Below, one piece after another: positions 6,301-53,900 of a stretch of 54,562 nt of DNA (positions are counted from its first letter, which is position 1; each line of letters opens with the position of its first letter). Location of the stretch: positions 1 through 54,562 of the forward strand of contig JAHFFR010000004.1 in NCBI GenBank assembly GCA_023247825.1, read 5' to 3'. This stretch comes from Candidatus Omnitrophota bacterium. Lineage in GTDB: Bacteria > Omnitrophota > Gorgyraeia > Gygaellales > Profunditerraquicolaceae. The notes beneath the pieces are model-generated. The model saw only the letters and a program-made list of their open reading frames with translations, had not been told where the DNA came from and searched no databases. The translations under genes and the position numbers were made by a program.

Positions 6301-9300
6301 TCCTTGCCCGCCAAAATGAGTGCGCGGCCTTTGCGCCCCTGTATTAGCCTCACCTATACAATACTCGCCCACTTTATATATATAATAATCTTTGGCCATT
6401 TTCTTAGCGACCATACCCGCAAGGATATCCATAACATTACCCATATCTTCCCCGTAATCATAGTATCTTCTTGCACCTGTTTTATCAAGGTATGTGGATT
6501 TTTTATATTCTTCCATTATCATCTTTTTAACTTCAGAATTAAACACCAGCCTTCCATATCCTTCGTTTCTGATTATGCCTTTTTTTAATAATTCCGCGGT
6601 TATCTCATTGTTTTTCAATTCATTGAGAGAAATATCCCTGTTTAATTCCGCGCCAAGCTTACGCCTGGTGATTTCCCATAATCCGTTTACGCTCTTATAA
6701 ATATGCTCATTTCTTTGCCGGTAAACTAATTTCCAGAACGGCTGCAGTAAACCTTTATGGCTTTTGACTAAATCCGCGGACTGCATTGCCGCTTGAGGTT
6801 CATCGGTGAACAAATGCCGGCCCTTAATATAGCTTTTATAGCCATCCCGGCCAAGATATTTCGTGCTGGTCAACTCTAAAAGAGTATGATTATCAAAAAC
6901 GTTGATGCCCTCTTTATAAGGATAGCGCCGGGATGAGATTGTTCCCGGCTCAACCTTATTAACCTTGGCCCCGATAAAAATCGGCTTGGCAAGGAATTCA
7001 TTTACTAATTTATCTTCAGATGTATGGTAGAGTATCTCCTCCTTCGGAAAATTATCTGATAAGAACCTCATTACTATTGCCGCCTCTTCAGTTTTTCCGC
7101 CCGCGCAGGCCAAGTCATAGATTGTCTTGGAAGGATTGTTATTATTAGAAGATATCAAGTCTTTAACCTCGCTCCATCCCAGCCCTATTGAAAGCGGGTC
7201 ATACTCCAGAGGTTTTTCATTAATGCTTCTTCTTATCCTATTGTTCTCAATATGAATAGAGGCGAACGCCTCATATCTTTTAAGATTATCCGGCAGGGAT
7301 TGCCCTCTTTCCAATTTATGGATTGCCTCAACTATCTGGAAACCTTCGACTTCAGCTGCCCAAGCTCCTTTCCTCTCATAGATGCCCAAGTTAGCTATAA
7401 AGTTTTCAAAATCGCCGCCCATTGCCTTAAATTCATTCCTATGAAAACCATATTCATTATAAGCGTCCTGATTGACCCCGTATTTTTTAAATTTCTGCTG
7501 TAAAATTTCCGGAGAAGTTTCTTTTGTGATTTTCTCTTTCCGTTCCATCTGATAAATCTTCTGGAAATCCAAAAGTTTTTTTGTATATTTCGAGAGATCC
7601 TGGCCATTATTATTATAATTAAAAGCGGGCAAAGTCATGACCGGAATCAATATAATAGGTTCGCCGACCTTGGCATCAAGAAGTTGGGATGTAATCTTGA
7701 ATATATTATTATGAGATACCAGATTATCTTCTGGATATGCCGAAGGCCTCCCGGTTCTTTCAATGTTTTTGTTTAGAATGTTTTCTCTTCCTAATTCTTG
7801 CTCGAACAAACTAAGCGCGTTATCAAGACCAATGTCTTTTTCTTCTTTTATACCCTGAAGATTTATTGAAAAATCGCCCTGCTGAGAAGGCATAACTTTG
7901 TTCTTGATAAAAGAGGGGCCAAACAAAACCATTCCGGCAGCAGCCGGCTTGCCTAAACCTCCAATGCCTCCGTCCTGCCAACCTTGATAGGAAGCATATA
8001 CGGCTGGTATTCCCACCATTGCTGCCGTAGAAACTGCGGGCACAAAACTTGGATGCGTTACAACTTTATTAATCTGAGGATAATTAGCTAAAGATGAACT
8101 TACCTTCGGTTTAATATTATCAAGAAAAGAACCTGTATTTATTTTAATATCTCCGGCAACTCCTTTTGTCCCTCTGCCACCGCTCCATATAATAAAAGCA
8201 GTACCTAAGCCTCCTCCGATATCTCCAAAATTAGCATGATAATCCGGGCCCGTTGAATATCCAAAATAAGTTGGAATCGGCCCTAAGAAATTATGCGCAA
8301 GGCCGATAAAATCGCCTGTTGATAAACGGTCTATAGTTGACCCCTGGCGCAGCCCAATCGTTTTTTCGGGCATACCTGCCAAGAAACTCGCGATACCATT
8401 CCATCCCTGGGCGGGATCGCTGCCAATTGATGAGCCAATTGAAGGGCCGGTCAAAGGATTAAAAGAAGTTACCATTTTGACAAAACTAGCCGCGTTAGGG
8501 AAACCTAAACTATTTATCCCTCCACTGATTGTTTCTGAAATACCATATCCAATAGCAGGAATTGAAGGTATGGATAAGGAGGTATCTTTATACTTGACCG
8601 TAATATAATCCGGTATAAATAAAACCTTTTCAACAATGTTGACTTTACTTTTTAAGGCAGTGTTTTCATTATTCAACGAAGCTATTTTTGTAAGATCGGA
8701 TAATATCCTCTGATCATCGAACCTGATATCAGGGTATTTACTTTCTAAGAAAACCTTCACATCGTTTTGTGTAGCTGGATTAGCGGAAAATGTGTTTAAT
8801 AAATCACCGACCAGCGCTTCAGATCTTTGGGTATTAAGGCTTCCGAGAGTAAAAGAATTTTGTATTTTGCTAAAATCGTTAGTTAAATCACCAATCTGCC
8901 CATTATTGGAATTATACATTCTAAACTCAGGAGAACTAAAGAATAAACTATAAACGCCCGCGCCCAAAATAGTATATCCTGTATATTTAGCCAATGGCCT
9001 GACAATCCGGTTATCAAACAACAATTTCCTACCTTTGCTAAGATAATCAACACCTTGCTTGAACCCGATATTTTCAGTCAATTTTGTAATGCTGTTGATT
9101 TTTGTAGTATCACTTACTAAATCTGCCTCTCTTGCTATCTTTAATGAATCTCCCGTTATCCCCAAGGTTTTAATTTCTCCACCGCCAACAAATAAAGTAC
9201 CGATAAATCCAAGAGTTTCTTCTGTTGGCTTTACCGAATTATAATAATCTTTCTCTCCATATATTTTAATTTGAGGTTTATCAATATTATTTACTTTAAA

Positions 9301-32844: not shown

Positions 32845-32961
32845 TTAGATACGCATCTCCATCGTTACAATCAAATCACTCAACTCTTCTACTTCTTCCT
32901 GCCTGTCATCATCTTCCTCATCCCCCACCCCGCCGTCGGTTGGAATAGACCTGCTGCCGAA
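32845..32961 (-). pseudogene. In-frame relic module downstream of the giant gene's stop codon
   Basis: After TAA at 32962-32964 the same frame reads FGSRSIPT-DGG-VGDEEDDDRQEEVEELSDLIVTMEMRI*, with DGG encoded GACGGCGGG like the internal junctions. Confidence 0.5.
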
Positions 32962-47900: not shown

Positions 47901-50900
47901 TAGAAAATACATTCTGGATCTCTGCTAAGGTTCCTGCGATGCCATACGAATTTCTCTTTAAAACCTCTAATGTCTGTTCTACTGTGGCATCAGGGCCGTA
48001 TTTTCTTTCAAGTAAATATGATTCAAAGGCAATGTTAATGGCATTAATAAACGCATTCCTAATAATCGCTTTTTGATCTTCTAAAAGTGGTATTGTCTTA
48101 ACTATGCCATCTATACTCCCTATAAATTCATTTAACAATTCAATGCGATTCCCGCCGCTGAAAATGTATTTATTAGCTTTTAACTTACTCAATGCCGCGT
48201 TATCCACTCCTCGCTTCGCAAATTCTTCTTTTTCCGGCAGAGTAACTGCTGCTCCATTCCTTACCGCCTTCTGGAAGCGCTCTTCCAACTCCTGAAGGGT
48301 AAATCTGTCGCCAAATTCATCAAGAATATCATCTCCTAATTCTATAATATAAATTAAAAACCCCGCTAATAATTGATATATTTGGTACTTGCGCATATCC
48401 TTTAGAGAAAGCCCAATTAAATTGGTAATAGTATAAATATAAAGCTTATTATGAAACATTAAATTTATTCCCATATTTCTATCCGATTCATCTTCTTCTA
48501 CAATATCTCTAAAGTAACTTAAGATGCTTAAGGTATTCTTTAATCTCATAATTAATCTCGTACTCTTTCCATACCTTGCAGAAATTCCGCCGTCTTTTTC
48601 TTTAGGAGGGGCCTTGCCGGTTACCCTCTCAAAATCTTCTTTTATTTTCTCTGCGGGTAGGAATTCAGATTTATCTTGGTTATTTTCCTTTGTATTTCTT
48701 AATTTTAATAACTGGCAGATAATGTATACCGCAACTGCAGACCACAACGCAATCTCGGTAACAATATCCCGCTCTCCGAAAAATTCTTCTTTGTTTCTCG
48801 TAGGGGCGGGAGTAGCTTGCGGAGTAACAGTAACTTCTATTTCGGGAGTTTTTAGAGGAGCTGCCCTTGTTATCCCTAATTCCTGCGGAGTCTTGCCAAT
48901 CATCTGGTACCATTTGTATTTTTGAGAATAAAGCAGTTTACTACCGGTTGGAGGAATCGCGGACCCTGCCTCCGGGTCAAGAGGAACTTCTCCGTTTTTA
49001 GTCTTTAGTAAAAGGATAAAACGCTCTGGTTTGCCATCATTGTTTGTATCCAAGCCGACAATCTCGCTATCAACCCAAGGTAAATATAGGCAGCTCAAGA
49101 ACACCAGAAGCTCTTCAGGAGTTGCGGATCCGGGCGCTTTTTGAGTCAGATTGTCAAATGTTTTATCCGGTGTCTGAATCGGTTTATTAACATCGTCTCT
49201 GGAGATTAAAGACTTGAAGCCTCCGGATTTTTCTCTTATTTCCGCATAAAGGACGATTAATGGGTGTTTGCTGTATTTAAGAGTAAAGCTTATTGTTTTA
49301 ACACATTCATCAAGAGGGAAATTGGGTGGGATTTCTTGGCCGGCCGCTCTCTCTTTATTTATATAATCTTCAATAATCTCTAATGCTTTATAATCCAACC
49401 CTTCATTGCTTAACGCCGCTGCCGCTTTTATTGCCCCGGCTATGCCTATAGATGAAGCAAGCACCCCTAACCCAAGATATTTTGTGATCTCTTCCATAAA
49501 TTTTCTACGCTTTAACATAATAATGCCATCTTTCTGCTCCCCGCCATCCCTGCCCTGCCTGGATAATTCCTCGAATAACTGTTTCGGGATATCCTTTTTT
49601 GAAATAAGACCCATTGTTAGTAATATACCTCCCAGCGCTTTTAGCCGCGCAATCTCTGTAATATAATGAAGAGAGAAAATATCGTAACCAACATCAGAAC
49701 CTAACTTATACCTAGTAATAATTTCCGGAATTGTTTCCTTGTTTTTTATCATTTCTTCACCCAACCGAAGTACCGCAGGTAATAAACAATCCATTATGAT
49801 TTCTAATTCTTTCATCTCTTCTTCACTGTATTTTATTTTTTTTGCGCCGAAACCAAAAATAGTTTTTACTAGTTGGTGCCCGCGATTAATTGTATAGAAT
49901 AGCAGTTGTTCAAAATTATTCGGTGCCGGATCTCCTAAAAGTGCGCTATCCAGCATTGGAAAGCTTGTAATATCCTTTTGCGCGTCCACATCGCCCGCCA
50001 GCGCTTTTTTCAGCAGATTATCTATCGTTAAAAATCTCTCTATCGCTTTGACCTTTTCAATTGCTGCTTTATAATCAGGATAGGCTTCTAACAGCCGGCT
50101 GTAATTTTCTTCTAATTTTCCGTCGCTTTCCCAATCATTTAACTGCCGGTAAATTTCCTCTTCGGGCTTTCCTTCTTTATTTTTTAATAGTATCCGTATT
50201 ATATATTTGAAATATTTATTCTTTACTTCGCCGGGAAGCTTTTCCAATAAATCATCAGCGCCGCCGTCAAATAATCCAGAAACACCTAACTTTTGTTCTC
50301 CGGCCTTCACAACATCGTCAAGTGTTGATTTCTCAATTAGAAGCATTGAAATCTCATATTCAGAAACATTGGTTGTCTGTAATCTTTTAATAATATCGAC
50401 AACCTCCTTGGTTTTTTTCAGAAGTCCTGGAATCTCAGAGTAGTCAATCCATTTCTTCTGTGCATAGATTGGCAAGTAAAATTTTTCAAACTTCTCGATT
50501 ACTTCATTCCAAACCCAAGTACCGTTACGCACATCATCTCTAAAGGCAAATATTTCGTATATTATTCCTTCTTCTGCGGTTAACATAGAAATTACTAATT
50601 TTCCTGAAGGTTTTAATCTGGTTTTAGTTTTTTCGGGATGGAATCCTCCGATCAGGTATTTATACAGAAAATACGCCCTGTGCAGATCTTCATGCACTGT
50701 CACCCCAGCATCTTCTGATAAAATACTAATAGATACATTATTAAAAGGAGCAGGAAGGATACCGGGATGTATGGTAATCCCGAGAATGCTTGTGGGAAGC
50801 CCCAATTTGCCCTGAAGACCGCTGCCATACCACTTTTTATTTGAGACTACAATTGTAGGAGTTAATGCTTCTAATCCATATATCTCTTTTAAAATTCTAT

Positions 50901-53900
50901 ACTTGTCGTAACCAATTTTTGCCCCTTCAAAATCAGATGTTTTTATAGAAGATACGTTAGGAGCATCGTACTCTCTTAATGCCTCTACAAGTTTATTTAG
51001 ATTTTCCGGGCTATTTATATTCCCTATGATTTCCCTTGCTTTATTCTCTTTTTTCTTTAATTCCTCTATCTTTTGGTCATTTATATTTTGTCTTGTTTTA
51101 TAAGCAACTTCACATTTCGTAAGCGCTTCAAGCGCATCAACCAAAATCATTGGTTTATCTTCGGGATATCCACTATTATCTTTTTTAACTATTATTCCAA
51201 TCCTATTTTTAAATTCTTCCCTCCAATCCAACCACTTCTGAACTCCTTTATCATTAAATAACCAAAGAAGATGACGAGTAGCGCTATATACCAAATCCTG
51301 CCATTTAGCATATCTTACCCATCGTTTCACATCTTTTCCTTTTATCTGTTCTAATATATTATTTTGAAATGCCTGTACTTTTTTATAATCAGCTTGATAC
51401 ATCCATAAATATTTTATAATTTTCTTAAGTAATCCCTCTTTTTCTTCTATCGCCAACTTCTTCATAGCAGTCTCTGTAATCAGAGAAGAATCCTGCTTGG
51501 TTACCGCTGTAATTATTTTCCTTGCCTGTTCGGATAATATACTATCAATGAAACTTTCTATCTTAGGTACATCTACTCCGCTAATAACTTTTACCAGTAT
51601 ATTTTGAATTTCCCATAATGCTCTTGCGCCTATAACTCTGGGATATATCTCCTTGCCAGTGGAATCTATAAATATAAAAGTAGGGGTTGCATTAACATGG
51701 TATAGATACCATGTTGGCATATCTTCATAATCCTTGATTTTTACACACACAAAGTTATCTTTAAAGAATTCTTGCAGTTTTGTGTCTGAGAAGACCTCTT
51801 GCACCATAATTTTACAAGCAGAACATTCGTTTATATCTTTACCAAAATAAATCAGCATTTTTCTTCCGGTTTTTTCAGCTTCTTTTCTTGCTTCTTCCAC
51901 AGAGGTATACCACCATTTCATTATTTCTTGCTCATCTGCAAAAATTGGCTCTTCAGGTATAGATTTTTCTTCTTCAATTTTACCTTCGGGGACAATAATC
52001 CGAGTAAGGCTATCGAAATCAATGACGCGATCGGCAGATTTTTCTTCTTTACGCCTCTTTCTAAAAAATCTATCAAAAATACCAAGAATGGAAAAAGAAA
52101 TGAGAAAACTTTCCGCTTTTCCTGTCCTGCCGCCGTCAGTAGAATCATAATTTTTCTTAAATTTAGAATTCTGTCTTATTAATTGCTTAAGTAACCACAA
52201 AGTTGCTTCTGGCCCTCTTAAGCCAATTATCATCGGGACACAAATCTGTTTTGGATTGTTGGAGTCGCACTTATCAACAGAAAAACTACCTTCTTCTTTA
52301 AGAAATTCGTAGTCATTTCCTTTGGCGTCGCCGCGATCCCCAAATTTTCCCATATCACGGATTTTAATCTTAAGCCGCTTGGCCAAGTTAGACAGCGGTA
52401 TTGACTTATCTACTCCAATTAAAGTTAACTCTACAGCAATACTTGAAGCTGTTGCATTCAATCCTAAATTATGCTGCTCGACAAATTCTGTTAAAGTCTC
52501 CTGATATTTGGGTATAAGTTTATTATCTTTGAAATCAGTAAAGTTAATTTTATATTCGGTAAATCTACTGGTGCATATCCCTCTTACATCCAAAGGATAA
52601 AGGTATTTTTCTTCTTCAAAATAAGAGCGCCACTCTTCTTTGAAACAAACTACATTCGGATTATTTTCTTGCGCATCCCACTCCCAATTAATAAACTTTG
52701 CGACTTGTTTGCGTATATCATCGGGGAATTTAATTTCGTAATAGATTTCACCAGTGCCAACATTATATCCGGAAGCGCCTCCAGAATGATATACATGAAT
52801 CCGCTTAAAGCTATCCGGAGTCAACCGCGGATGTTCTCTTAATTTGGAAACTAAACGGTCTTCTATATATTCCTGCCTGCCGTGGGTAATAATCGCCAAA
52901 TGCATTCCTAATTTCACAACAATATCTACCAAAGCCTCAATCATCTCCTTTGTCGGCTCTTTATCATCGTAAATCGTCCCATCACCATCTACAGCTACCA
53001 CTTTATAATCCCGACTAAGCGCTTCAAGCAATTTTACTTTTAATATACTAGGCTGCCCAACATCTTTAAAAACAGGAGTGATTGGGACTCTATTTCCCGT
53101 GCCGCCGTCACTTTTTCCTTTTTTATCAGAATATTCATTTTTATATAAAGCAGTAAGGTATTTTCTTAACCATTCTTCCTGGGCTTTCCTGCGGTCAGCT
53201 ATAGATTCACCTAAACAAAACGTCTCAAATGATAATCTATCTTTTCCCCGGATTATCAAGCCCTTTTGTTTCTTCCTAAATGCGCCGGTCACTCTGCCGA
53301 TATCGGACTTCTTAATTTCAACCAAATCAAGTTCTCCTTGGTTATATTTATCGATGAGCAAGTCCAATACTCCATCAACGTGAATCCGTTCTGATTCGGG
53401 CCTTTTTTCATTAATAACATCGGTGATCTCTTCGGGAATAAACGGGGTATTGAAATCTCTGGCTGCCAAATAATTGTCTATTTCCATAACAATCTTTTGC
53501 TTATACAATCCGCGCATTGCCTTTATTGCCTGCTCTCTTAATACCAGCCAATAAGATATTTCCTGAGAATATTCTTTTTGACTATTGCTAATAACATAAA
53601 ATCGACTGTGATCATTTTGTTCCTCATTGACTATTATTGCAATATCTGCGAAAGTCTTATTTTGACCGGAGAATATTGTGCTATTTTGCAAGTTTGCCCT
53701 TTTTACTGATTTTTCCATGACATGTCCATAATCTTCCTTCGAAAGGACAATAACTTCCCAGTCCTCAGGCGGGATACTTTTTTCAACAACGGCTTCGTCA
53801 GGAGCTAAAAATGTTTTTCTACTGCCAAAAATATTTATTCTTTCAGTTAAGAAAGATTCGGGGGCTATCTTTTTGTGCGGCTCAATCTTAAAATCTTTCT

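What the first reader, a model, noticed from the sequence alone, without database searches (positions are those of the whole stretch)
48595..49539. An apparently complete standalone exported gene is embedded as one module
Seen: right after a DGG comes M-LKRRKFMEEITKYLGLGVLASSIGIAGAIKAAAA (twin-arginine-like signal, Met at 49518), then a globular domain with a DTNNDGKPE Ca-binding-like loop, a P/T-rich linker (TPEIEVTVTPQATPAPT) and a C-terminal TM with a basic tail (IALWSAVAVYIICQLLKLR), then the next DGG. An internal Tat signal cannot work mid-protein unless released. The previous Trx module likewise starts with a relic-like GIFDRFFRKRRK. Inference: modules are captured whole genes, or are functional after cleavage or internal initiation.
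Basis: partly seen in the sequence, partly recalled or inferred. Interest (0 to 1): 0.62.

Follow-up and report, generated by a model that had tools for sequence, protein, structure and literature searches.

The report
Internal membrane-insertion cassette in giant protein
One unit of a giant, Asp-Gly-Gly-punctuated protein of an uncultured Omnitrophota bacterium has the complete layout of an exported, membrane-anchored protein, but it is best read as a built-in membrane-insertion cassette that works inside the chain, not as a captured gene or a twin-arginine (Tat) export substrate.

Summary
In the giant ORF (32962-54561, minus strand, 5' end off the contig), residues 1642-1959 lie between two DGG tripeptides. 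They comprise a basic KRRKF stretch, a 17-residue Gly/Ala-rich hydrophobic stretch, KAAAA, a roughly 185-residue conserved domain, a Pro/Thr stalk, a second hydrophobic helix and a basic tail.

The interpretation mostly fails:
- TatA and TatC were not found in any of 18 genomes of the genus. SecY and signal peptidase I are present.
- There is no Shine-Dalgarno site, promoter or conserved Met.
- No free-standing homologue turned up in 1.84 billion representative proteins, 400 Omnitrophota genomes or two contig collections.
- The only relative is a 74%-identical copy inside a second DGG giant ORF of the same assembly. It is under purifying selection (dN/dS 0.25), lacks both DGGs and has Ile for the Met.

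DNA homology between the two copies runs exactly from the basic stretch to the end of the second helix.

My best reading is an exchangeable Sec/SRP-type hairpin cassette that puts a small domain outside the cell membrane and keeps both flanks cytoplasmic, whether or not DGG sites are cut.

The scan has noted DGG junctions and internal export signals before in other Omnitrophota genomes. I found neither described in the papers I searched. Cutting, export and function remain untested.

The parts
32962..54561 (-). Giant ORF of at least 7,199 codons. The 5' end runs off the contig, and the first ATG at 54462 has no Shine-Dalgarno site. It carries 17 DGG junctions plus one DGG inside the M50 protease motif.
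49540..49548 (-). Upstream DGG junction (GAT GGC GGG).
49519..49539 (-). Seven-residue head (EQKDGII) between the DGG and the Met. Only its last codon falls inside the DNA homology block with the paralogue, which starts at 49521.
49480..49518 (-). Basic n-region MLKRRKFMEEITK. The Met is at 49516-49518. LKRRKFME is identical in the paralogue, where the Met is Ile.
49429..49479 (-). First hydrophobic segment YLGLGVLASSIGIAGAI (17 residues, Gly/Ala/Ser-rich). I read it as a signal or signal-anchor h-region.
49414..49428 (-). KAAAA, a candidate signal peptidase I site (Ala at -3 and -1), identical in both copies.
   Evidence: the -3/-1 rule is from established knowledge
48856..49413 (-). Conserved domain of about 185 residues, predicted to lie outside the cytoplasm. 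It is 86% identical to the paralogue, with dN/dS 0.25. It has no family or fold assignment.
49024..49050 (-). DTNNDGKPE loop (DTNEDGKPE in the paralogue). In the low-confidence model it is the turn of a beta-hairpin. Calcium binding is not shown.
48766..48855 (-). Pro/Thr-rich stalk (LKTPEIEVTVTPQATPAPTRNKEEFFGERD), the least conserved part of the cassette.
48706..48765 (-). Second hydrophobic segment IVTEIALWSAVAVYIICQLL, a candidate stop-transfer helix.
48595..48705 (-). Basic tail (KLRNTK...) and a 37-residue spacer running to the next junction. Apart from its first few codons (homology ends at 48695) it is not homologous to the paralogue at the DNA level.
48586..48594 (-). Downstream DGG junction (GAC GGC GGA).
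48695..49521 (-). Block of DNA homology (84% identity) with contig C14:20601-21515. It runs from just before the basic stretch to the end of the second hydrophobic helix, and it defines the exchangeable cassette.
35230..37170 (-). M50 (site-2 protease) module of the same ORF, multi-pass membrane, with HEMAH and ..PAFPMDGG. It is relevant only to the speculative membrane-coupled processing idea.

Best explanation
Residues 1642-1959 are a self-contained membrane-insertion cassette inside an Omnitrophota giant modular protein.

Proposed mechanism (inferred):
- A basic stretch (KRRK) and a short Gly/Ala-rich hydrophobic segment act as an internal Sec/SRP-type signal or signal-anchor, with the N side in the cytoplasm.
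- The next roughly 215 residues, a conserved orphan domain plus a Pro/Thr stalk, are threaded to the outer side of the cytoplasmic membrane.
- The second hydrophobic helix stops transfer, and its basic tail returns the chain to the cytoplasm.
- The two helices therefore form a hairpin that tethers the chain to the membrane and displays one small domain outside. The cofactor-dependent enzyme modules on both sides (methyltransferase, GNAT, nucleotidyltransferase and others) stay cytoplasmic.

The cassette does not need to be cut out to work. It is an exchangeable unit of these proteins, not a recently captured gene, and it is not a Tat substrate. In this copy the flanking DGG sites, if they are cleavage sites, would additionally free it as a 318-residue membrane protein.

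What is shown: the sequence layout, the paralogue and its context, purifying selection, the failure to detect Tat, and the lack of start signals.

What is inferred: membrane insertion, topology and any cleavage.
For: - Layout and hydropathy: there are exactly two hydrophobic peaks in the module.
- Charge distribution: Lys+Arg counts in the 15-residue flanks are 5 and 4 on the proposed cytoplasmic sides against 2 and 3 on the outer sides. The paralogue gives 5 and 3 against 2 and 2.
- The paralogue on C14 (74% identical) lies inside a 1,275-residue DGG-to-DGG segment. It sits between a 145-residue conserved domain and an Amidohydro_2 domain, with no DGG within 554 residues upstream or 414 downstream, and it has Ile in place of the Met.
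- DNA homology between the two copies spans window 48695-49521, from the basic stretch to the end of helix 2.
- Selection: dN/dS is 0.25 for the domain and 0.31 for the whole cassette, with dS 0.26-0.36. LKRRKFME and KAAAAL are identical in both copies.
- Export machinery: TatC and TatA were found in 0 of 18 genomes of the genus. SecY and signal peptidase I are present in the own genome.
- Bona fide N-terminal leaders of neighbouring genes have the same build: a Lys-rich n-region, a hydrophobic core, then small residues at -3/-1.
- Other modules of DGG giant ORFs also carry one or two hydrophobic helices. One pair lies 4-6 residues after a DGG and is conserved in two species.
Against: - Both helices are only marginally hydrophobic. 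Summed Hessa-type values recalled from memory are +1.3 to +3.3 kcal/mol for 17-residue windows. No dedicated signal or TM predictor was available.
- The first segment (15-17 uncharged residues, then KAAAA) looks more like a cleavable signal than a stable anchor. A hairpin that stays intact is therefore not assured.
- There is only one paralogue, and it may come from a co-binned strain and not from the same genome.
- The structure models are poor (pLDDT 35 and 54), so the fold and function of the domain are unknown.
- In this copy the two DGGs bracket the cassette neatly, 21 residues before helix 1 and 38 after helix 2. That is also what a released protein would look like.
Confidence: 0.6

Rival explanations
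1. Release first, export second. The giant chain is cut at DGG in the cytoplasm. The freed 318-residue protein then has an N-terminal Sec signal, is exported, loses the signal at AAA|, and stays anchored by its C-terminal helix as a type I membrane protein. On this reading the cassette needs excision.
For: - DGG is enriched 12- to 18-fold and sits at module borders.
- Modules shared with another species (G127) align from DGG to DGG.
- In this copy DGGs flank the cassette closely.
- The signal-like build, with a short h-region and KAAAA, fits a cleavable N-terminal signal.
Against: - The paralogue is under purifying selection yet has no DGG on either side. There the 'signal' lies 574 residues into its DGG-bounded segment.
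- No cleavage has been shown.
- No C39-type double-glycine peptidase was found in the roughly 90%-complete genome.
- This rival and the best explanation predict the same topology. They differ only on whether excision is required.
Confidence: 0.22
2. The segment is not a membrane element at all. The two hydrophobic stretches are buried or amphipathic helices of a cytoplasmic module, and the resemblance to signal plus anchor is coincidental.
For: Hydrophobicity is borderline (Kyte-Doolittle 1.6-1.9, positive Hessa-type sums). Helix 2 carries a Glu in both copies. A hydrophobic core strand of the HAD module is flagged by the same scan, which shows that false positives occur.
Against: The ordered combination is conserved in both copies: basic cluster, hydrophobic stretch, KAAAA, domain, Pro/Thr stalk, hydrophobic stretch, basic tail. 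The charge bias follows the positive-inside rule. The cassette boundaries coincide with the two helices.
Confidence: 0.12
3. A captured gene that is still expressed on its own, by internal initiation at Met 49518, as a Tat- or Sec-exported protein.
For: An in-frame ATG lies directly before KRRKF. In C14 a Met lies at the very start of the homologous block (EA-M-QKYDF). The module has the highest G+C of the ORF, 0.418, equal to the genome mean.
Against: - The Met is Ile in the paralogue.
- The only GGAG lies 18 nt upstream, whereas real starts in the window have GGAGG at 4-9 nt.
- There is no promoter-like or terminator-like site on the coding strand.
- Met is not enriched after DGG: 14 of 80 junctions against about 13 expected.
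- No Tat genes were found in the genus.
- No free-standing homologue was found anywhere searched.
- GC3 is barely raised (0.377 against up to 0.375 in other modules), so the G+C excess comes from amino-acid composition.
Confidence: 0.04

Closest known systems
Internal signal and stop-transfer sequences of viral polyproteins (flavivirus, pestivirus, alphavirus structural and bunyavirus glycoprotein precursors)
   Same: Signal-like and anchor-like hydrophobic segments lie in the middle of a very long multi-unit chain. They decide which units face which side of the membrane. The signal-like segment ends in a small-residue (Ala-x-Ala type) site that a membrane signal peptidase could cut.
   Different: Those are eukaryotic ER systems with proven cleavage by host signal peptidase. 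Here the host is a bacterium, nothing has been shown to be cut, and the other junctions carry a DGG motif with no counterpart in those viruses. The comparison rests on established knowledge, not on a test run here.
Giant proteins of Omnitrophota (West-Roberts et al., bioRxiv 10.1101/2023.11.21.568195; also noted in eLife 10.7554/eLife.108061 as gigantic proteins with many domains and TM segments)
   Same: Same phylum. ORFs run to thousands or tens of thousands of codons, mixing enzymes, peptidases and transmembrane segments. Post-translational cutting is suspected but the sites are unknown. Homologues of several modules of this ORF lie in ORFs of 3,769 to 81,822 codons in other genera.
   Different: Neither 'DGG' nor 'polyprotein' occurs in the text of the two Omnitrophota giant-gene preprints. 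The eLife paper was searched only for other terms. Two related giant ORFs lack it: G238 has 0 DGG and G207 has 9 against 16 expected. This cassette itself has no homologue outside this assembly.
Bitopic and hairpin inner-membrane proteins inserted by SRP/SecYEG/YidC (signal-anchor plus stop-transfer topogenesis, positive-inside rule)
   Same: A basic cluster precedes helix 1 and another follows helix 2, with a less basic loop between them. SecY and signal peptidase I are encoded in the genome.
   Different: The first helix is short, Gly-rich and followed by KAAAA, so it may be cleaved and not retained. At least 1,660 residues lie upstream, which is unusual for a first topogenic element.
Tat (twin-arginine) signal peptides, consensus S/T-R-R-x-F-L-K
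   Same: R-R-K-F-M matches R-R-x-F-hydrophobic. The h-region is weakly hydrophobic, and a Lys stands in the c-region before AAA.
   Different: There is no Ser/Thr before the RR, and Glu replaces the final Lys. The element is not N-terminal. TatA and TatC were not found in the genus.
MARTX-type multi-effector toxins released by an internal protease domain
   Same: Strings of unrelated enzyme modules (here GNAT, nucleotidyltransferase, methyltransferase, and Fic on C14) sit in one chain and are exchanged between copies.
   Different: No RTX repeats, no CPD domain and no demonstrated processing. The comparison is by architecture only.

Membership tests
Tat (twin-arginine) export substrate | The Tat machinery (TatC and TatA/B/E) is encoded by the organism. 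| tested here: not met
   PF00902 and PF02416 were found in 0 of 18 genomes of the genus, own genome (90% complete) included. The same searches rang in 11 of 14 control genomes.
Tat (twin-arginine) export substrate | S/T-R-R-x-F-L-K motif in the n-region. | tested here: inconclusive
   The sequence is L-K-R-R-K-F-M-E. RR, Phe and a hydrophobic residue fit. The Ser/Thr and the final Lys do not.
Tat (twin-arginine) export substrate | The signal lies at the N-terminus of the translated protein. | tested here: not met
   The signal lies at least 1,648 residues into the ORF. There is no Shine-Dalgarno site or promoter, and the Met is not conserved.
Sec-type cleavable signal peptide or signal-anchor | Positively charged n-region, hydrophobic h-region, and small residues at -3/-1. 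| tested here: met
   KRRK, then 17 uncharged residues (15 in the paralogue), then K-AAA-A. The check was manual, because no SignalP-type predictor was available.
Sec-type cleavable signal peptide or signal-anchor | SecYEG and signal peptidase I are present. | tested here: met
   SecY scored 377 bits and Peptidase_S26 scored 180 bits in the own genome.
Sec-type cleavable signal peptide or signal-anchor | Actual translocation and cleavage. | not testable with these tools
   This needs topology reporters or N-terminal proteomics.
DGG-punctuated giant proteins of Omnitrophota (seen repeatedly in this scan; not found in the papers searched) | DGG is strongly over-represented and placed between unrelated modules. 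| tested here: met
   18 against 1.5 expected (C64), 39 against 2.2 (C14) and 23 against 1.6 (G127). DGG is the most enriched tripeptide in C64 and C14.
DGG-punctuated giant proteins of Omnitrophota (seen repeatedly in this scan; not found in the papers searched) | Modules are evolutionary units bounded by DGG. | tested here: inconclusive
   This holds for five modules shared with G127. It does not hold for this cassette in C14, which has no DGG on either side. It also fails for module 10, which is split by DGGs in C14.
DGG-punctuated giant proteins of Omnitrophota (seen repeatedly in this scan; not found in the papers searched) | Cleavage at DGG. | not testable with these tools
   No C39 peptidase was found in the genome. 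Proteomics is needed.
Captured free-standing gene | Free-standing homologues of similar length exist. | tested here: not met
   - phmmer against 1.84 billion representative proteins gave one spurious repeat-protein hit.
- 400 Omnitrophota genomes searched in six frames gave only the two copies in the own assembly.
- The metagenome and genome contig collections gave none.
- The HAD and GNAT modules likewise had no hit among proteins of comparable (free-standing) length.
Captured free-standing gene | Relic start signals (ATG plus ribosome-binding site) are conserved. | tested here: not met
   Met is replaced by Ile in the paralogue. There is no GGAGG at 4-9 nt. Met is not enriched after DGG.

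The most novel reading that the evidence does not exclude
The internal signal is a membrane-coupled cutting point of a bacterial polyprotein. On this reading, signal peptidase I cuts after KAAA on the outer face, as host signal peptidase does in flavivirus polyproteins. The remaining Gly-rich N-in helix would then be a substrate for the M50 site-2 protease module encoded in the same chain, freeing the upstream cytoplasmic enzymes. The giant protein would thus be dismantled by two routes, DGG sites in the cytoplasm and signal-type sites at the membrane. That would explain how the C14 copy can do without DGGs.
Probability: 0.1. Interest if true: 0.8.

Novelty: new variant of a known kind. Interest (0 to 1): 0.45.

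Why it matters
Whether the giant proteins of Omnitrophota work as single chains or are cut into many proteins is an open question stated in the founding preprint. This cassette gives a natural comparison. The same export-type unit occurs once bracketed by the candidate cutting motif and once fused seamlessly into a larger segment, and both copies are under purifying selection.

That argues that at least some sorting signals in these proteins act from inside the chain. It also offers a small, clonable test object of about 830 bp for topology and cleavage assays in a laboratory host. Finally, it corrects a tempting but wrong reading, that an RR motif means Tat, for a genus in which no Tat genes were found.

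Tried and rejected
- Tat export: rejected. No TatA or TatC in 18 genomes of the genus.
- C39 double-glycine peptidase as the DGG protease: not found in the own genome.
- Homology of the module: nothing usable in Pfam, NCBIfam or PDB sequences. phmmer against 1.84 billion representatives gave only a spurious EF-hand-repeat hit. No hit in 400 Omnitrophota genomes, nor in the metagenome and genome contig scans.
- Structure: AlphaFold2 on the whole module gave pLDDT 35. On the domain with a 2-row alignment it gave pLDDT 54 and pTM 0.43. Foldseek against the PDB gave nothing below E 0.6. Neither a fold nor a calcium site can be claimed.
- Free-standing relatives of other modules: the HAD and GNAT modules gave no hit among proteins of comparable length.
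- Relic start codons: Met is not enriched after DGG.
- Foreign origin by composition: G+C is raised, but GC3 is not clearly raised.
- The 145-residue H-E...H domain upstream of the C14 copy as a general delimiter or protease: there is only one copy in this genome and it has no family match. I left this open.
- Contig-end overlap between C14 and C64: none. There is only a weak protein-level hint that they are consecutive.
- The phylum-wide search with residues 3001-6000 was swamped by TPR hits and added little.
Full report
**What is there**

The window is a whole contig (C64) of a 1.41-Mb, about 90%-complete Omnitrophota assembly. On the minus strand an ORF runs from the contig end (54561) to a stop at 32962-32964, at least 7,199 codons. 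The first ATG (54462) lacks a ribosome-binding site, whereas neighbouring genes carry GGAGG 4-9 nt before their ATG. The true start is therefore probably off the contig.

The tripeptide DGG occurs 18 times against 1.5 expected (Poisson P about 5e-14). It is the most enriched tripeptide in the ORF. One copy (residue 6295) belongs to the conserved motif of the M50 protease fold. The other 17 separate segments of 114-652 residues. These include HAD, thioredoxin-like, TPR, methyltransferase, GNAT, nucleotidyltransferase and M50 domains, and many segments with no family match.

**The flagged module**

Residues 1642-1959 (window 48586-49539) read as follows:
- EQKDGII, then M-LKRRKFMEEITK.
- A first hydrophobic stretch, YLGLGVLASSIGIAGAI, followed by KAAAA.
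- A domain of about 185 residues containing DTNNDGKPE.
- A Pro/Thr-rich stalk.
- A second hydrophobic stretch, IVTEIALWSAVAVYIICQLL, followed by KLRNTK, a 31-residue spacer and DGG.

The similar remark about the thioredoxin module does not hold up. There the short hydrophobic run comes before the basic cluster and stays under the threshold.

**Is it Tat?**

No. TatC (PF00902) and TatA/B/E (PF02416) were not found in any of 18 genomes of the genus, including this one. The same searches rang in 11 of 14 control genomes. SecY and signal peptidase I are present.

Genuine N-terminal leaders of neighbouring genes in the window have the same general build as the internal element. The RR pair is therefore best read as the basic n-region of a Sec/SRP-type element.

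**Is it a captured gene or an internal start?**

- The ATG at 49516-49518 has no Shine-Dalgarno sequence at a usable distance. The only GGAG is 18 nt upstream.
- No promoter-like or terminator-like site lies on the coding strand.
- Over 80 DGG junctions in three giant ORFs, a Met within the next 12 residues is no more frequent than at random positions: 14 observed against about 13 expected.
- phmmer of the module against 1.84 billion representative proteins gave one hit, a eukaryotic EF-hand repeat protein, which is spurious.
- A six-frame search of 400 other Omnitrophota genomes (16 of the same genus, 59 of the family) gave nothing.
- Pattern scans of the metagenome and genome contig collections gave nothing.
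- For comparison, the HAD and GNAT modules also had no hit among proteins of comparable (free-standing) length.
- Non-generic modules with relatives elsewhere find them inside ORFs of 3,769 to 81,822 codons.

**The one relative and what it shows**

The same assembly holds contig C14 (31,888 nt), a single frame open at both ends: 10,628 codons with 39 DGG. It shares six module types with the window ORF at 38-95% identity, in a different order.

The flagged module matches C14 residues 6867-7173 at 73-74% identity. That copy lies inside a 1,275-residue DGG-to-DGG segment:
- There is no DGG for 554 residues upstream or 414 residues downstream.
- Upstream is a 145-residue conserved domain. Downstream is an Amidohydro_2 domain.
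- The Met is Ile (IILKRRKF).
- LKRRKFME and KAAAAL are identical in the two copies.

At the DNA level the homology (84%) runs from window 49521 to 48695. That is from just before the basic stretch to the end of the second hydrophobic helix. The head after the DGG and the tail before the next DGG are unrelated.

Nei-Gojobori estimates give dN/dS 0.25 for the domain (dS 0.26), 0.15 for helix 2 and 0.31 overall. Both copies are therefore maintained by selection.

The conserved, exchangeable unit is thus the stretch from helix 1 to helix 2, not the DGG-to-DGG module. It is kept in a context where it cannot become N-terminal by DGG cutting.

**Best explanation**

The unit is an internal topogenic cassette:
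- The basic stretch and first hydrophobic segment start translocation, with the N side in the cytoplasm.
- The domain and stalk end up outside the cytoplasmic membrane.
- The second helix and its basic tail bring the chain back in.

Lys+Arg counts in the 15-residue flanks are 5 and 4 on the proposed inner sides against 2 and 3 on the outer sides. The paralogue shows the same bias. A pair of helices is what an internal membrane element needs if the cofactor-dependent enzymes on both sides are to stay in the cytoplasm.

Other modules of these ORFs also carry one or two hydrophobic helices. One pair lies 4-6 residues after a DGG and is conserved between two species.

Insertion, topology and the role of the outer domain are inferences. 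The domain has no family, no PDB relative and no confident model. In the weak model the DTNNDG motif is simply the turn of a beta-hairpin, so calcium binding is unsupported.

**Caveats**

- Both helices are only marginally hydrophobic (using a scale recalled from memory).
- The first is short and followed by KAAAA, so it may be cut by signal peptidase I and not retained.
- If DGG sites are cut, this copy would also exist as a free 318-residue membrane protein. That rival predicts the same topology and differs only on whether excision is needed.
- The paralogue might come from a co-binned strain. That would not change the argument.

**Context on DGG**

I found DGG punctuation in one other species of the genus (G127: 6,966 codons, 23 DGG against 1.6 expected). 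It is absent from two related giant ORFs: G238 (14,247 codons, 0 DGG) and G207 (59,091 codons, 9 DGG against 16 expected, with PTPT linkers instead). Five modules shared between G127 and this genome align from DGG to DGG.

The junction codons favour GAC-GGC (75% and 81% over 80 junctions). But in ordinary genes of this genome Asp before Gly is already GAC in 54.5% of cases, against 23.6% overall. Ordinary DGGs use GAC 49% and GGC 57% of the time. The excess at junctions is therefore about three-fold in odds (P about 0.007), much less than a comparison with bulk codon usage suggests.

No C39 double-glycine peptidase was found in the genome. The two Omnitrophota giant-gene preprints suspect cleavage of the giant proteins, but the words 'DGG' and 'polyprotein' do not occur in either. 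The eLife paper notes gigantic Omnitrophota proteins with many domains and TM segments; I searched it only for other terms.

Earlier notes of this scan report DGG junctions in at least 20 other genomes. They also report internal export signals in giant Omnitrophota genes, including one case where a relative keeps the signal but not the ATG. I reached the same pattern here independently from the C14 copy.

**Verdict**

The Tat, captured-gene and internal-start readings are not supported. The 'self-contained exchangeable unit' part is supported. The most likely reading is a Sec/SRP-type membrane hairpin cassette that works inside the chain (confidence about 0.6). It is a new variant of known topogenic elements in a still poorly understood class of giant bacterial proteins.

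Noticed in passing
G000 contig C14:1-31888 (loci L036, L037): The whole contig is one frame open at both ends: 10,628 codons with 39 DGG. It carries Fic, transglutaminase-like, Amidohydro_2, TPR and methyltransferase domains, and it shares six module types with the window ORF in a different order.
   Followed up: partly
L037:2172-2606 (C14 residues about 6724-6868); alignment A2: An uncatalogued domain of about 145 residues (GxFxNL..RAPP..IYFS..H-E-x8-H..Q) lies directly upstream of the paralogous cassette. It is found in giant ORFs (1,673-20,993 codons) of 8 other genera of the family, with up to three copies in one ORF. It has no Pfam or PDB match, and its homology ends about where the cassette begins (one alignment runs some 20 residues further). 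It could be a small metalloprotease-like unit.
   Followed up: partly
whole genome; junctions in window 32962-54561: There is a codon-context effect. Asp followed by Gly is GAC in 54.5% of 873 cases in ordinary ORFs, against 23.6% GAC overall. Ordinary DGGs use GAC 49% and GGC 57% of the time. This explains much of the apparent DNA-level conservation of the GACGGCGG junctions. The remaining excess is about three-fold in odds (P about 0.007).
   Followed up: yes
window 43279-44925 (module 10) against C14 modules 30-33: The kinase-like plus methyltransferase module is one DGG-free unit in the window. In C14 its two halves are separated by DGG, a 50-residue module, DGG, the TPR module and DGG. 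Junctions therefore appear or vanish with rearrangements.
   Followed up: partly
C14 residues 321-599 and G127:C3 (L034, L035) residues 1646-1877: A module with two hydrophobic helices starting 4-6 residues after a DGG is conserved (35% identity) between two species of the genus.
   Followed up: partly
G127:C3 (L034, L035); G238:C20 (L031-L033); G207:C2 (L013-L025): Among giant ORFs of relatives, 23 DGG occur in 6,966 codons (G127, same genus), 0 in 14,247 codons (G238, same genus), and 9 against 16 expected in 59,091 codons (G207, another genus, which uses PTPT linkers). The junction motif is specific to particular lineages or genes.
   Followed up: partly
window 54462-54561 and the C14 3' end: A module of G127 aligns across an artificial join of the C14 end and the start of the window ORF. 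The two contigs may therefore be consecutive pieces of one gene of more than 17,800 codons. There is no nucleotide overlap at the contig ends, so the evidence is weak.
   Followed up: partly
window 32929-32937: An in-frame GACGGCGGG (DGG) lies 9 codons past the stop codon of the giant ORF, as another first-stage note said. It is the only copy of the octamer in the window outside the ORF.
   Followed up: partly
G000 contig C68: Two further long frames (4,871 and 1,970 codons, separated by a run of N) have 32 DGG. All of them lie in the motif YSTDGG of a roughly 95-residue repeat domain, which is a different thing from module junctions.
   Followed up: no
window 44926-46077 (module 9, residues 2930-2948 of the ORF): A hydrophobic segment (LSLCSVISQLGYILLVGLF) lies in the N-terminal part of the TPR module. 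It is conserved in C14, and the surrounding domain has relatives in giant ORFs of other genera. If it spans the membrane, it would put the downstream cofactor-dependent enzymes outside, so it is probably a buried helix.
   Followed up: no
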